Shown piece after piece: positions 1-59,546 of a stretch of 64,000 nucleotides of DNA. This DNA comes from Amoebidium appalachense. Lineage: Eukaryota; Protista; Ichthyosporea. Below the pieces are notes generated by a model. The model made no database searches. It had not been told where the DNA came from and worked only from the letters and a program-made list of their open reading frames with translations. The number at the start of each line of letters is the position of its first letter. The first letter of the stretch is position 1. Both the position numbers and the translations under genes were made by a program. The stretch lies in assembly GCA_963693365.1 (NCBI GenBank), contig CAVNZM010000001.1:10938161-11002160 (forward strand), written 5' to 3'.

Positions 1-117
1 TGGGCCCCCCCTGAGGATGGGCTCTGCTTATTATGCATACTCTTTATGTATGGCTTGCATTCTGCATCGTGTTATCCGTTTGTTCTTGTGTACTTCGTAC
101 TTTTTGACGCATTCAAA
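1..117 (+). mobile_element. 3' end of a dispersed repeat (putative CRE/RLE-like non-LTR retroelement), copy 1
   Basis: Identical by eye to 9981-10097; immediately followed by a poly-C run. Confidence 0.7.
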
Positions 118-175
118 CCCCCCCCCCCCCCCCAAAAAAAAAAAAAAAAAAAAAAAAAAAAACACTTACCCACAG

Positions 176-452: not shown

Positions 453-1267
453 ATGTTTTGTGTGTGTGTGTGTGTGTGTGGCGGGGGGGGGGGGGGGGGG
501 GGGGGGGGAGGGGGGGGGTGGATTTCGACTACTTCCTCTTTTTGATTTTTATTATAATTTTCTATTATTATTTTTTGAAGAAATATTGCTTTTTCGCTTC
601 AGATTCTGTGCAGTTTCGGAAGTTCCCGAAATGTAGGCCACATGGGAATCACATGTATGTATGTTGCCAACGGTCTTCGTCATGTATGGTATGAATGAGG
701 AGCATATATATATGGCATGTATATATCACGAATGATAAGTAAATATATAGTATACGTCGATATGCTGCTAAATTTCTTTTGCGCCGCGAAGGAAAGGAAA
801 AGGGTTGCTTTAAATTTGAATTCGAAAAAGGTCTAGACACACCAATCTACTACACAGAGGGGTTCATTCAAATGTGCGTATGTTGGTGACTACACAGGCT
901 TATGGTCTACTGGGATTACGCGCATCAACTTTGAAACAAAGCTTTGCATGATCAACTATTATCGCCAAGTACGAAACGTAGAGAATCCAAAAATAAACAG
1001 GACGACAGGGAGGGTTTCCCCCCCCCAACAAAGTTATAGCTATAGTGAGCTGATGAAGAGTTCACGCTTGACTCGACTCATAGAGATCAGTCTCTGCACT
1101 TCATATACATAGACATGGAGTTTTCTGCCATATATTAACCCGTTCAAGTGACTATGTCAGTATGATCATGATGCATCAGCACACAAAGCTTGGTCAAGTT
1201 ATGGTTGCTTGTATATTGATTCTTTTTTGCCACGTGTGCAAAATAGATCTAGATGAAACCAACTTGC

Positions 1268-1647
1268 TAATTCAGTCGAGTTATATTAACGTTCCGGCGC
1301 GATCCGCAATTGTCCCTTGCTCCTTTCAATCGCAAGAGCTCTTGCATGGAATCCAGTCATGATGCACGGTTGATGCGTACATATTGAAAAGTGGACGTGT
1401 GTTTATATAATCATAAGTACTACAAACGTATGCCAAGGCCTACGTAGTGCTACAGCCTAATTCAGTCGAGTTATATTAACGTTCCGGCGCGATCCGCAAT
1501 TGTCCCTTGCTCCTTTCAATCGCAAGAGCTCTTGCATGGAATCCAGTCATGATGCACGGTTGATGCGTACATATTGGAAAGTGGACGTGTGTTTATATAA
1601 TCATAAGTACTACAAACGTATGCCAAGGCCTACGTAGTACTACAGCC
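1268..1647. repeat. Tandem duplication, 2 x 190 bp
   Basis: taattcagtcgagttatattaac...ctacagcc at 1268-1457 and 1458-1647, about 2 substitutions. Confidence 0.95.
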
Positions 1648-1985
1648 TTGCCCCCCCCCCCCCACATACACACACAACAAAGAAAAAAGAGGCGCTCCAG
1701 GCGCCCGATAAGACATGTGTGTGAGCCACTTTCTTATGATTCAGCACAGAACAGAGGTGCTACATTAGAAGTCTCCTTTATTTCGTTCGTTGTTTCACAT
1801 TATATTTGTTTAGCGCGATGTTCATCATCATGAACCCAGTTCCAGACTGGATCTTATATATATCTCACTCTGCAAGTACGCGATACATCATAACAACTCT
1901 CAAAACGTTTAGAAGGCATTACTTGCATGTAACTGGTTGGTATTCGAAATTTATGACACCATGGCCAGTTTATAATTCCCCTCAG

Positions 1986-2019
<34 letters not shown>

Positions 2020-2228
2020 AGCTTTCGATATACCCGGGGAAAACAAGACTTCAGACATAGTAACATACTTAACGCTTATTTCACGATATCACTGATGATT
2101 CAAGCCATACTTCTATTAACAGCAAACCAAAACCGGCAATCTCAAAAAAGCATTTCCACAAATTCACACCATCAGAGGCTAACAGCCAAGCCCTGCCCCG
2201 GTGCCCGTGCATAAATTTTTAAAACCTC

Positions 2229-5214
2229 TCACTGAATAATTCTCAGTGAAGAGCGCCTGTTGGGCAGATACTTGTCCTTATACGCATCATACAGCTCCTT
2301 CAGCCCATCGATATACAGTTGATGGTACTTATCAAGATCCTCAGAGGTGGGATTCTCAATCTTGGGGCAATCTATAGGCTTACCAACAACCACCTTAATC
2401 TCACCACGATGAGGGATAATGCCAACCGAGTATTGGAAGAAACCCCGGCCGTTGAAGGGAGGGAACGACATGCCGATCACCTTGGTTAGTTTGTCTTGGA
2501 ATGCGCGCAGAGGGGTCCCAATGCTATTATCTGCGTAGAACGTAAACCTCTCGTTCTCACCGAAACCAAACGTTGGTACAAGACCAGCACCGTTTTGCAG
2601 AGCCAACTTGACAAACCCCTTTCTGCGTGCAAGCGTCAAATCGGCTGTTCCCGGACGGGCATCCAATGCCTCGGCGGCCCCACCAACAACGATGGTCACC
2701 GTTTTTCCTTTACCATGCGACAAAACATAGTTGATGCTCTCCTTGTTGGAGTGCAGACTTACGCTCACTCCACAATATGTGTATGTTAGCTTTACAATTG
2801 GTTCCGTGTACACAGACACACGCTGACACTCGATCACCACATGCACATCTGCATAGTTGAGGAATGTTGCCAATTGTGTTTTGACTGCAAACGATTGGTT
2901 CACTGGTCCCAGAGATCTCTAAATGAAAGTAACCAATCCGATTAGCGCCTGGCATCCGGATTACATTCCAGACTGCTGCCCCACGGGTATATAAGCCACG
3001 TCTCTGCCAGGTGCAGACATGGAGTTAAGTCATGGAGTTAAGTCATGGAGTTAAGTCATGGAGTTCAGTCATGGAGTTAACACACTGAAAGCAGTAAAAA
3101 ACGGGTCAGCGCCCAAGCGCGCCACGACGACCCTAGTCACAGCGGACTCTACTTCCAACAGGGTTATGGGCCCAGACACGACACCGCGGCCTCTAACTTC
3201 ACGTCCCCTACGACGCCTTGAACGGAGGAGCCCAGAAACCGACTTCTAGGCTGTACCCTACACCCGCGAGCGTATTTCCGTGAAGTAGAGACTTTCGCTT
3301 CCACAAACTCCATCCGCAGCAGCCTGCGACATCAACGTCAAGTATTCCACTTCATTGGCGGGGCACGCACCACAGTGGAATGCACACCCCGGTCTACCCT
3401 GCAAGCAGCCACACTCACTCTCTCTTCTCTACAGTGGTGTGTACACTTCTCCAATTGGGTAGGGGTGTTGGAGTGCAGACTTACGCTCACTCCACAATAT
3501 GTGTATGTTAGCTTTACAATTGGTTCCGTGTACACAGACACACGCTGACACTCGATCACCACATGCACATCTGCATAGTTGAGGAATGTTGCCAATTGTG
3601 TTTTGACTGCAAACGATTGGTTCACTGGTCCCAGAGATCTCTAAATGAAAGTAACCAATCCGATTAGCACCTGGCATCCGGATTACATTCCAGACTGCTG
3701 CCCCACGGGTATATAAGCCACGTCTCTGCCAGGTGCAGACATGGAGTTCAGACATGGAGTTCAGTCATGGAGTTAAGTCATGGAGTTAAGTCATGGAGTT
3801 CAGTCATGGAGTTAACACACTGAAAGCAGTAAAAAACGGGTCAGCGCCCAAGCGCGCCACGACGACCCTAGTCACAGCGGACTCTACTTCCAACAGGGTT
3901 ATGGGCCCAGACACGACACCGCGGCCTCTAACTTCACGTCCCCTACGACGCCTTGAACGGAGGAGCCCAGAAACCGACTTCTAGGCTGTACCCTACACCC
4001 GCGAGCGTATTTCCGTGAAGTAGAGACTTTCGCTTCCACAAACTCCATCCGCAGCAGCCTGCGACATCAACGTCAAGTATTCCACTTCATTGGCGGGGCA
4101 CGCACCACAGTGGAATGCACACCCCGGTCTACCCTGCAAGCAGCCACACTCACTCTCTCTTCTCTACAGTGGTGTGTACACTTCTCCAATTGGGTAGGGG
4201 TGTTGGAGTGCAGACTTACGCTCACTCCACAATATGTGTATGTTAGCTTTACAATTGGTTCCGTGTACACAGACACACGCTGACACTCGATCACCACATG
4301 CACATCTGCATAGTTGAGGAATGTTGCCAATTGTGTTTTGACTGCAAACGATTGGTTCACTGGTCCCAGAGATCTCTAAATGAAAGTAACCAATCCGATT
4401 AGCGCCTGGCATCCGGATTACATTCCAGACTGCTGCCCCACGGGTATATAAGCCACGTCTCTGCCAGGTGCAGACATGGAGTTAAGTCATGGAGTTAAGT
4501 CATGGAGTTAAGTCATGGAGTTCAGTCATGGAGTTAACACACTGAAAGCAGTAAAAAACGGGTCAGCGCCCAAGCGCGCCACGACGACCCTAGTCACAGC
4601 GGACTCTACTTCCAACACTCCTTGCTTACAGGGATGAGACCCAGTGCCATAAGGTAATCACGGAAGAATGGGTACTTGAAGTTCTCAGCAAGGGTGCATG
4701 TGTAAGGGGTGAAGGAGGGAAACACGTCGGGGTATCCACCAACGTCTGTGCCAAACGCAATAATAGCACCGCAGCCGATAATACCGTGTGGATGGTAGCC
4801 AAAGATGTAGTTTTTTTCGGGATTCAGCTCACACCCGTCAATTTTCTCGAGAGTAACAGGGAAGTAATCACGCATGAGCTGAAACAGCTTGCTGCTGCGA
4901 AGCCATTTGGAGCGTCTACCGCCAGAGACGGGTGTTTTAGAGTCCATATATATCCATATAGCGTAGGGTATGAAGAAAACCCATGTTGCCGGGGAAAAAA
5001 TGCATAGAATTGTTAGCCCTAAGAACCACAAATACGCGGTGAGGGAGAAGAAAGTGGCGATTGTTTGCAACCTGCGCTCCATTGGAATGCTCAACGGGGC
5101 AAACTTTAAGCCCATCAGCGTAAAGCCAGGCCTTTCCGGTGTAGCTTGGCTTGGCGCATTTTCTTTTGGTTGTGTTGTTTCCTGAGGCTTGTTTGTGGTT
5201 TTTGAGTCTGTCAT
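2229..5214 (-). CDS. DGAT2: Diacylglycerol/monoacylglycerol O-acyltransferase (DGAT2/MOGAT family), interrupted by an LTR element
   Basis: ATG at 5214. The 5' part (5214-4618) has an N-terminal TM segment and GYHPHG. The 3' part (2738-2229) has IVVGGAAEAL and RKGFVKLALQNGAGLVPTFGFGENE. Removing the insertion and one TSD copy restores an uninterrupted 1107-nt ORF (368 aa; junction LIPVSKE-SINYVL). Confidence 0.93.
2744..4617 (+). mobile_element. Tandem miniature LTR retrotransposon (TRIM-like, Copia-derived): LTR-internal-LTR-internal-LTR
   Basis: LTRs at 2744-3160 (417 bp), 3466-3895 (430 bp) and 4201-4617 (417 bp), each TGTTGGA...TCCAACA. Two 305-bp internal segments. 5-bp TSD CTCCT at 2739-2743 and 4618-4622. 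PBS GGTTATGGGCCCAG 1 nt after LTR1 and LTR2. Purine tract GGGTAGGGG before LTR2 and LTR3. TATATAA inside each LTR. Confidence 0.96.
3018..3081 (+). repeat. 13-bp minisatellite (CATGGAGTT(A/C)AGT) inside the LTR
   Basis: 5 units in LTR1 and LTR3, 6 units in LTR2, which accounts for the 13-bp length difference. Confidence 0.9.
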
Positions 5215-6088
5215 TTTGGATGTTCTTTTCACAATACTGGTTTAGAAAGCACAACAAACAAAACTGTTAGTCTGGACCGGATAAAACTTGAGGTTATATA
5301 CCTGTAGCTACGAGCCACAAGATCACATAATCCAATCAAAAACCATCACCTTTTGATCATATTCACGCGAGCCAATCAAAACATTTAACCTTAAATTATG
5401 CATTTTGATTGGTTCACAGGACCCCCGTGTGCCCGGCGGCATGCAACAATGCTGCCAAGCATATTTTTTTTTCTCGCAAATTCAGCACAACGTTACGTTT
5501 TTTCTTTTCTTTTTTGTTTTCTTTATTTCTAAAGCTCTAATCCCATGCATGTAGGAAAAGTTAGATGGAATAAAGTCCAAAGTCTCCAAGAGCCTCACTC
5601 ACTGATAATGCCAATCCGGATGTCATACAAAGACCGGCAAACTTACAATATTAATAAGTTTTAAATGAAATCAACCTACAGATTAAGATGTCTCTAACAG
5701 AGTTTAAAGCACATAACTATTTAAACCTATGATGAGAATCATGAATTCAAAACGAAGGTCCCACTAAGCACTACGTCATAGGTCCGCGAGAGAGAGAGAG
5801 AGAGACTGAGAGAGCGGAGAGAGAGAGAGAGAGAGCAAAAGCGGAAACTCGAGGAGTGTTGGTGGGGAAAGGGAGCGAGACTGACCAGGAAGACAGAAAT
5901 ATCAAAGCAGGCGGGGATTGGGAGTGAGTTTAGCGCGAGATGTGATAGAGTTTTGGCGTGGATACTTCCACACACGCCCTCCTTGACCTACTTACCCACT
6001 TTTCCATAATCATAGAGGCAACAAAACACACCCTTCACAACCATCACAGATCTTTCATATGCTTGTGCGTGGTTAGAGACATGTCAAC
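5215..6088. promoter_or_regulatory. Divergent (head-to-head) promoter region between DGAT2 and PAN3
   Basis: About 870 bp between opposing start codons; several CCAAT(C) motifs (about 5331, 5372, 5408 reverse, 5611). Confidence 0.5.
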
Positions 6089-21680
<15,592 letters not shown>

Positions 21681-59179: not shown

Positions 59180-59546
59180 TGCACCTTCTACGAGAAGACA
59201 CACTTTGTTTTTCGTAATTTTCGACCCTTCGCACCGATCAGAACCACATCAAACCTATATTTACTAGAAAGCTAACGTTTTCTCTATCGAGTGATACCAT
59301 TTGTTCGTTAGCGACGCGCAAATAGAAAAAGGTTTATTATGATACATGTGTTTTTTCACGTGTTTTCGATTAAAGAAATGTATTCACCAGATGACGATTG
59401 AATTGGAATTTTGAAGTCGACCAATCATCAAATCGGTTTGGTCTCAGATCAAACTATAAAATTTAAAGGATTGCTAACAATTGGATATTAAAGTTAGGTC
59501 GATCAATTCCAATCGTGCTTTAAATTTGTTTGTCTTCTCGTGATGA
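59180..59546. mobile_element. MITE family A, copy 2 (inverted relative to 17283-17659)
   Basis: Collinear reverse-complement similarity along its whole length; ends TGCACCTTCTACGAGAAGACAC / TGTCTTCTCGTGA. Confidence 0.85.

What the first reader, a model, noticed from the sequence alone, without database searches (positions are those of the whole stretch)
2739..4622. Very young tandem Copia-type mini-LTR element that apparently moved as a whole dimer into the DGAT2 coding sequence
Seen: three LTRs and two 305-bp non-coding internal segments, with a single 5-bp TSD (CTCCT) around the whole 1874-bp unit. The two outer LTRs look identical (417 bp). The middle one differs (an extra 13-bp unit and a G>A in ATTAGCGCCT). 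Established: reverse transcription makes the two terminal LTRs of an integrated copy identical, and TRIMs and tandem-array TRIMs are best known from plants. Inference: the LTR-int-LTR-int-LTR structure existed at a donor locus, was transcribed through the middle LTR and was integrated as one unit very recently. In-situ duplication of a fresh monomer would give three identical LTRs. This implies an active non-autonomous tandem-TRIM family with an autonomous Copia helper in a microbial eukaryote.
Basis: partly seen in the sequence, partly recalled or inferred. Interest (0 to 1): 0.82.

Follow-up and report, generated by a model that had tools for sequence, protein, structure and literature searches.

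The report
Doubled mini-retrotransposon splits a lipid gene
A doubled, gene-less miniature jumping element sits inside a fat-synthesis gene and cuts it in two; it likely formed when two sister copies were joined during copying, a structure known from plants and animals and seen here in what is probably a single-celled eukaryote.

Summary
The structure is real in the window: LTR-internal-LTR-internal-LTR (2744-4617) with one 5-bp target-site duplication, identical outer LTRs, identical 305-bp internals, and a middle LTR differing at three places. It splits an intronless DGAT2/MOGAT-family gene. One other run holds the uninterrupted gene with no other difference over 1,339 nt, so the insertion is polymorphic and young. 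The family is high-copy (single contigs at about 70-125 times flank depth), and its primer site is of the half-tRNA Copia type. The middle LTR's variants are ordinary family alleles seen in other runs, mostly outside this middle position, so two lineages were joined. I favour template switching slightly (0.4) over donor read-through (0.3) and later recombination (0.22). Tandem TRIMs are known; the host lineage is likely new for them. No helper element was found.

The parts
2229..2738 (-). 3' part of an intronless DGAT2/MOGAT-family (DAGAT) gene, 169 codons plus stop
   Evidence: Pfam PF03982 E 1.1e-57; frame open
2739..2743 (.). [quoted passage not shown]
   Evidence: run X7 holds one copy only
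2744..3160 (+). LTR1, 417 bp, TG...CA with a 7-bp terminal inverted repeat; G at LTR position 204 (2947); TATA-like box 2988-2994; five 13-bp units 3014-3078
   Evidence: U3/R border inferred from the TATA-like box only
3161..3175 (+). primer-binding site 1, 15-nt complement to an inner stretch (anticodon-arm region, recalled) of initiator tRNA-Met: half-tRNA type
   Evidence: matches the antisense human tRNA-iMet oligo printed in PMC1797187; same motif precedes Copia polyproteins
3161..3465 (+). internal segment 1, 305 bp, non-coding, ending in a purine-rich tract (3457-3465)
3466..3895 (+). LTR2 (middle), 430 bp; A at position 204 (3669); six 13-bp units 3736-3813 in another order
   Evidence: the A allele is held without other change by contigs of X20 and X12
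3896..4200 (+). internal segment 2, identical to segment 1, with its own primer site (3896-3910) and purine tract (4192-4200)
4201..4617 (+). LTR3, 417 bp, identical to LTR1
4618..4622 (.). right copy of the target-site duplication CTCCT
4618..5214 (-). 5' part of the DGAT2/MOGAT-family gene, 199 codons from the ATG; reads into the element and stops after residue 202
   Evidence: Pfam PF03982 E 9.3e-36

Best explanation
A three-LTR tandem of a gene-less, high-copy Copia-type mini-retrotransposon (TRIM) interrupts a DGAT2/MOGAT-family gene, and it likely arose as a heterodimer of two sister copies joined by an extra template switch during reverse transcription and then integrated as one piece. 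Shown: the anatomy, one 5-bp duplication, identical outer LTRs, an empty allele in another run, many copies, and that the middle LTR's U3 allele is an ordinary family allele. Inferred: a helper Copia supplies particle, reverse transcriptase and integrase; two short RNAs, one with the G-type and one with the A-type U3, were packaged together; minus-strand synthesis copied the G-type RNA to its 5' end, jumped at R to the 3' end of the A-type RNA and went on; the last strand transfer made the outer LTRs identical; integrase inserted the 1,874-bp cDNA antisense into the gene, which would now give a 202-residue fragment instead of 368 residues.
For: Anatomy meets all four diagnostic features named by PMC1950507 (internal LTR, two complete internals, duplication, matching outer LTRs). 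All middle-specific differences lie between LTR position 204 and the end of the 13-bp array, around the inferred U3/R border where a jump would occur. The A allele is held with no other change by a 253-nt contig of X20 (depth 1,761) and a 162-nt contig of X12 (depth 92.8); G is the retained form in X7 and X16. In X20 this internal segment has depth 257 against 1,761 for the A-type U3, so most A-type LTRs there are not preceded by it. In X1 both types are abundant (A-specific bin 78,716 against 326,216 and 220,443), so mixed packaging is plausible. PMC7215508 (passages) notes that small size eases concatenated cDNA.
Against: The locus alone cannot tell this from the two rivals: all three give the same end product. 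In X1 the A share (at least 12.6%) is under the one third that a propagating G-A-G dimer would allow, so a dimer lineage is not excluded. No AATAAA/ATTAAA in LTR or internal, which would ease read-through. Transcripts across an internal LTR are reported for Cassandra (PMC4079214, PMC7215508; passages). PMC1950507 found template-switch complexes rare (2 against 20 recombinant complexes in Triticeae). Depths are of contigs, which drop rare variants and are no copy number; X12, X16, X20 may be other strains or species. U3/R border is inferred, not mapped.
Confidence: 0.4

Rival explanations
1. Donor dimer read-through (first reader; also the model of PMC4079214): a heterodimer formed earlier at another locus, was transcribed through its middle LTR and was copied and integrated here as a unit.
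For: Same end product. No canonical polyadenylation hexamer in the element. A share in X1 fits under the one-third ceiling. In pear 182 of 1,175 intact Cassandra copies with duplications have three LTRs, and two peach ESTs span an internal LTR (PMC4079214, passages).
Against: The middle alleles need no ageing in a donor: they are free family alleles in X20 and X12. In X20 the A-type U3 is mostly not preceded by this internal segment. No donor could be looked for (no genome held). A donor would itself need one of the other two mechanisms to form.
Confidence: 0.3
2. Integration of a G-type monomer here, followed by recombination of an A-type cDNA or one-LTR circle into it (or duplication plus ectopic conversion), leaving resident outer LTRs and a partly foreign middle LTR.
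For: [quoted passage not shown] A high-copy family supplies much cDNA. All foreign letters lie in one block of the middle LTR.
Against: Needs two events at one locus within a very short time (0 of 417 differences between outer LTRs; flanks identical to the empty allele over 1,339 nt). No monomer allele could be looked for in short-word contigs.
Confidence: 0.22
3. Assembly artefact: reads of another family copy were merged into a monomer at this locus.
For: The family has many near-identical copies (2,314 and 2,344 contigs laid in X1 and X2); the middle LTR matches a common allele; no record spans the unit.
Against: The unit is only 1.9 kb, boundaries are clean and there is no N in the window; such tandems were confirmed by PCR in pear and maize and by long reads in rice (PMC4079214, PMC4717578, PMC11899658; passages).
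Confidence: 0.06

Closest known systems
Tandem-array TRIMs, type L3I2 (Gao et al. 2016, PMC4717578; passages seen)
   Same: Three LTRs, two short non-coding internals, one 5-bp duplication; L3I2 was 63 of 93 maize arrays.
   Different: Host is not a plant; monomer would be 1,139 bp with 417-bp LTRs; half-tRNA primer site; no sequence link tested.
Template-switch complexes (Sabot and Schulman 2007, PMC1950507; main text read, supplements not seen)
   Same: Internal LTR, two complete internals, flanking duplication, matching outer LTRs.
   Different: Theirs are full-size coding elements in grasses, found as old single cases; here the outer LTRs are fully identical, an empty allele exists and the middle allele can be traced in the family.
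Three-LTR Cassandra of pear and Cassandra arrays (PMC4079214, PMC7215508; passages)
   Same: Tandem TRIMs with one duplication; the same two mechanisms are discussed.
   Different: No 5S rRNA segment here (no Rfam match at E up to 1).
Tf1/Tf2 tandems by integrase-independent cDNA recombination (Li et al. 2022, PMC11042837; passages and section 9); Ty5 tandems (Ke and Voytas 1997, seen only as a reference title there)
   Same: Shared central LTR that is partly foreign, resident outer LTRs.
   Different: Autonomous yeast elements; the pathway is not shown here.
Half-tRNA-primed Copia elements (Osser, Bryco, Gymco-II in PMC6317226; passages)
   Same: Primer site complementary to an inner part of initiator tRNA-Met; the same LTR-end plus primer motif precedes Copia polyproteins in 16 of 16 long frames scanned.
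   Different: No coding region, so no lineage can be assigned; one more G follows the LTR end than in 122 of 123 metagenome matches.
biv-TRIM and other animal TRIMs (PMC6934838; passages)
   Same: Non-plant TRIMs with tandem forms; that paper also cites TRIM markers in fungi.
   Different: Host here is probably unicellular; insertion is in a coding exon and polymorphic.

Membership tests
TRIM | Terminal direct repeats with TG...CA ends | tested here: met
TRIM | Primer-binding site and polypurine tract inside the LTRs | tested here: met
   15-nt match to the antisense human tRNA-iMet oligo in PMC1797187; the host's own tRNA was not available
TRIM | No coding capacity | tested here: met
   longest ATG frame 82 residues; 4 of 4 element frames scanned have no Pfam match at the curated cut-off
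TRIM | 5-bp target-site duplication with an empty site | tested here: met
   X7 joins 2738 to 4618
TRIM | Miniature size | tested here: inconclusive
   monomer 1,139 bp; above the classic few-hundred-bp range (range recalled, from no call)
TRIM | Dispersed multi-copy family | tested here: met
   contig depth ratios and loose ends at LTR termini in several runs; rough, not a count
TRIM | Mobilised by an autonomous partner sharing termini and primer site | not testable with these tools
   no genome held; 0 exact matches in metagenome and viral contigs; two unfetchable leads in X16
Tandem-array TRIM (L3I2) | Three LTRs alternating with two internals, one duplication | tested here: met
   in the assembly; not confirmed by spanning reads
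Copia superfamily, half-tRNA priming | Primer site type | tested here: met
Copia superfamily, half-tRNA priming | Integrase before reverse transcriptase, Copia-type RT | not testable with these tools
   element has no coding region; shown only for unrelated elements with the same motif
Template-switch complex | Internal LTR, two complete cores, duplication, matching outer LTRs | tested here: met
   against PMC1950507; these features are not exclusive to the mechanism
Template-switch complex | Formed from two co-packaged RNAs | not testable with these tools
   needs particle cDNA/RNA or a genome-wide dimer census
Cassandra | 5S rRNA segment in the LTR | tested here: not met
   0 Rfam matches at E up to 1
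Retrozyme | Hammerhead ribozyme in the LTR | tested here: not met
   0 Rfam matches; no core motif on either strand (motif recalled)

The most novel reading that the evidence does not exclude
The G-outer/A-middle dimer is itself a replicating unit that makes up a sizeable share of a recent burst of a hundred or more copies in one strain of a unicellular relative of animals, which would be a direct demonstration that tandem TRIMs transpose as tandems, with a natural lipid-gene knockout as one daughter.
Probability: 0.15. Interest if true: 0.65.

Novelty: new member of a known kind. Interest (0 to 1): 0.42.

Why it matters
How tandem LTR elements with a single target duplication form is still open: PMC11899658 (passages) ends with both complex insertion and recombination possible. 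This locus is unusually clean for that question: identical outer LTRs, a marked middle LTR, an empty allele, and a young high-copy family with two traceable U3 alleles, so one long-read genome would separate the three mechanisms. It also likely extends tandem TRIMs to a unicellular eukaryote lineage and is a natural, strain-specific break of a DGAT2/MOGAT-family gene. The structure and all candidate mechanisms are already published, so it is not a new kind of element.

Tried and rejected
No genome is held for this window, so monomers, dimers, solo LTRs and the helper could not be counted. Exact LTR-end plus primer-site pattern: 0 matches in metagenome contigs; relaxed pattern: 0 in viral contigs. 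None of the 118 metagenome loci held resembles the element at E up to 1e-3, so none is the helper. No tRNA gene in the window. No Rfam match; 5' RNA region folds no better than shuffles (z -0.29). Splicing as the cause of the X7 joined form: none of the 8 equivalent cut positions gives GT-AG; rejected. Identity of the two internals as a test of donor age: no power (chance of 0 differences 0.11-0.48). Host identity: best named hits are 56% (a Creolimax protein) and 48%; a tree of 33 of the 178 proteins plus the C-terminal half puts it in an unresolved non-animal set with no starred small clade; not identified. No RNA holder is listed on record. X11, X12, X16, X20 have no cover at the insertion site or flanks: uninformative on allele state and on expression. 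Junction records in X1 and X2 reach 28, 26, 5 and 14 letters into the LTRs, under the tool's 31-letter mark for bridging, and these runs may be the source of the assembly. Earlier scan notes: nothing for this sequence or genome. PMC10161547 (passages) mentions TRIMs only by analogy.

Full report
Observation. The window holds three LTRs starting TGTTGGA and ending TCCAACA at 2744-3160, 3466-3895 and 4201-4617, separated by two identical 305-bp segments, the whole 1,874 bp flanked by CTCCT on both sides. LTR1 and LTR3 are identical (0 of 417 differences; upper 95% bound about 0.7%). The middle LTR has G>A at position 204, and six instead of five 13-bp units, with one further A>C in the array. 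Each internal begins with a primer site and ends in a purine tract. No other copy lies in the window.

The target. The element sits antisense in a single-exon gene on the minus strand. Both halves match Pfam DAGAT, the family of DGAT2 and MOGAT enzymes; hits carry both names, so 'DGAT2' is a family label. Without the element and one duplication copy the frame is open for 368 codons; with it, translation would stop after residue 202. The host is not identified. The best named hit of the C-terminal half is a Creolimax protein at 56%; a tree of 33 rows places the half gene in an unresolved set with unicellular holozoans, fungi and amoebae, apart from the main animal set. A unicellular opisthokont is my inference.

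Other runs. Of 21 runs listed, 7 were laid; all are short-word contigs. X7 holds one 1,339-nt contig with no other letter that joins 2738 to 4618: the empty site, found in 1 of 7 runs. None of the 8 equivalent cut positions is GT-AG, so it is not a splice. That contig covers only 2033-5250, which looks like a transcript, although the run is listed as DNA by guess. X1 (2024) and X2 (2011), from different studies, show flank records running 28 and 26, and 5 and 14, letters into the LTRs and no empty joint; this is under the tool's 31-letter mark and these runs may be the assembly's source. The other four runs do not cover the site. So the insertion is polymorphic and young, and may predate 2011.

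The family. 2,314 and 2,344 contigs lie on the stretch in X1 and X2, nearly all on the element. Single contigs reach 67-125 times flank depth in X1, 85-109 in X2 and about 29 in X11; these are rough signs of many copies, not counts. Loose ends at both LTR termini show other insertion sites. An internal variant lacking 84 bp occurs in X1, X2, X12 and X16; a 2-bp shorter internal is the retained form in X7, X11, X12, X16 and X20 but near flank depth in X1 and X2, which hints at a separate burst in the X1/X2 lineage.

Classification. The primer site matches 15 letters inside the antisense human initiator tRNA-Met oligo printed in PMC1797187 (passage), not its 3' end; half-tRNA primers were found only in Copia lineages in PMC6317226 (passages). 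The LTR end plus primer motif, with a variable gap, hit 119 metagenome stretches; of 118 loci held, 33 matches had a downstream frame of 250 residues or more; the 16 longest were scanned and 16 of 16 are Copia-type (15 with RVT_2, one with Copia gag and integrase). None resembles this element, so the helper is not found. Two leads in X16 (a contig leaving after the primer site, and a 5,043-nt contig with the purine tract and LTR start) could not be fetched. No 5S or hammerhead match.

Mechanism. But three routes give identical outer LTRs, a different middle LTR and one duplication: read-through of a donor dimer (PMC4079214, passages); an extra template switch between two co-packaged RNAs (PMC1950507, main text); and recombination of a sister cDNA into a resident copy, shown in fission yeast (PMC11042837, section 9). 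PMC11899658 (part 2 of 6 and passages) leaves the question open. The new evidence here is that the middle alleles are ordinary family alleles. The A-type U3 is held without other change in X20 (3466-3718, depth 1,761) and X12 (3557-3718, depth 92.8); G is retained in X7 and X16; X1 has both, A at least 12.6% of that region's summed depth. In X20 the internal has depth 257, so most A-type LTRs there do not follow this internal. The tandem therefore joins two lineages rather than showing private ageing. All differences fall between position 204 and the array, around the U3/R border inferred from a TATA-like box at 245-251.

Against my reading. The A share in X1 is below one third, so it could still come wholly from a propagating dimer. 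The element has no canonical polyadenylation hexamer. Concatenated transcripts are reported for Cassandra. Contigs drop rare variants, and X12, X16 and X20 may be other strains. I put template switching at 0.4, donor read-through at 0.3, later recombination at 0.22 and artefact at 0.06; integration as a ready-made dimer by either of the first two is thus about 0.7.

Novelty. Tandem TRIMs of type L3I2 are common in plants (PMC4717578, passages) and known in bivalves and cestodes, and TRIM markers are cited for fungi (PMC6934838, passages). I found no report of a TRIM in unicellular holozoans in four searches, of which I saw only the listings (10 of 13, 25 of 4,212, 30 of 247, 20 of 509); repeat libraries and supplements were not seen and could hold the family. 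Verdict: real, a new member of a known kind, moderately interesting as a clean test case.

Noticed in passing
window 1267-1648: Two head-to-tail copies of a 190-bp unit, 98% alike, just downstream of the DAGAT gene.
   Followed up: no
window 1-133 and 9981-10113: Identical 133-bp stretch, each followed by a C run (the first then by 29 A); may be the tail of a repeated element.
   Followed up: partly
window 17292-17655 and 59184-59542: A 364-bp AT-rich repeat, 83% alike, in opposite orientation; unclassified.
   Followed up: partly
window 2590-2624 and 4777-4812, run X7: Two other contigs (1,782 and 1,467 nt) match short parts of the gene and run on in similar coding-like sequence: likely paralogues that could cover for the broken gene.
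   Followed up: no
window 3202-3285 / 3937-4020: An internal variant lacking 84 bp is abundant in X1 and X2 and present in X12 and X16: a second, shorter subfamily.
   Followed up: partly
window 3908 and 4178-4209, run X16: A contig leaves the element just after the primer site, and a 5,043-nt contig holds the purine tract and LTR start: possible autonomous relatives.
   Followed up: no
L018 1-3072: A metagenome contig with two tandem copies (period about 1,557 bp, 99.4% alike) of a short Copia derivative coding gag and protease-region domains only, with the same primer motif.
   Followed up: partly
L054 and L073: Same primer motif followed by a second LTR-end copy only 144 bp on: possible very small TRIMs or repeats.
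   Followed up: no
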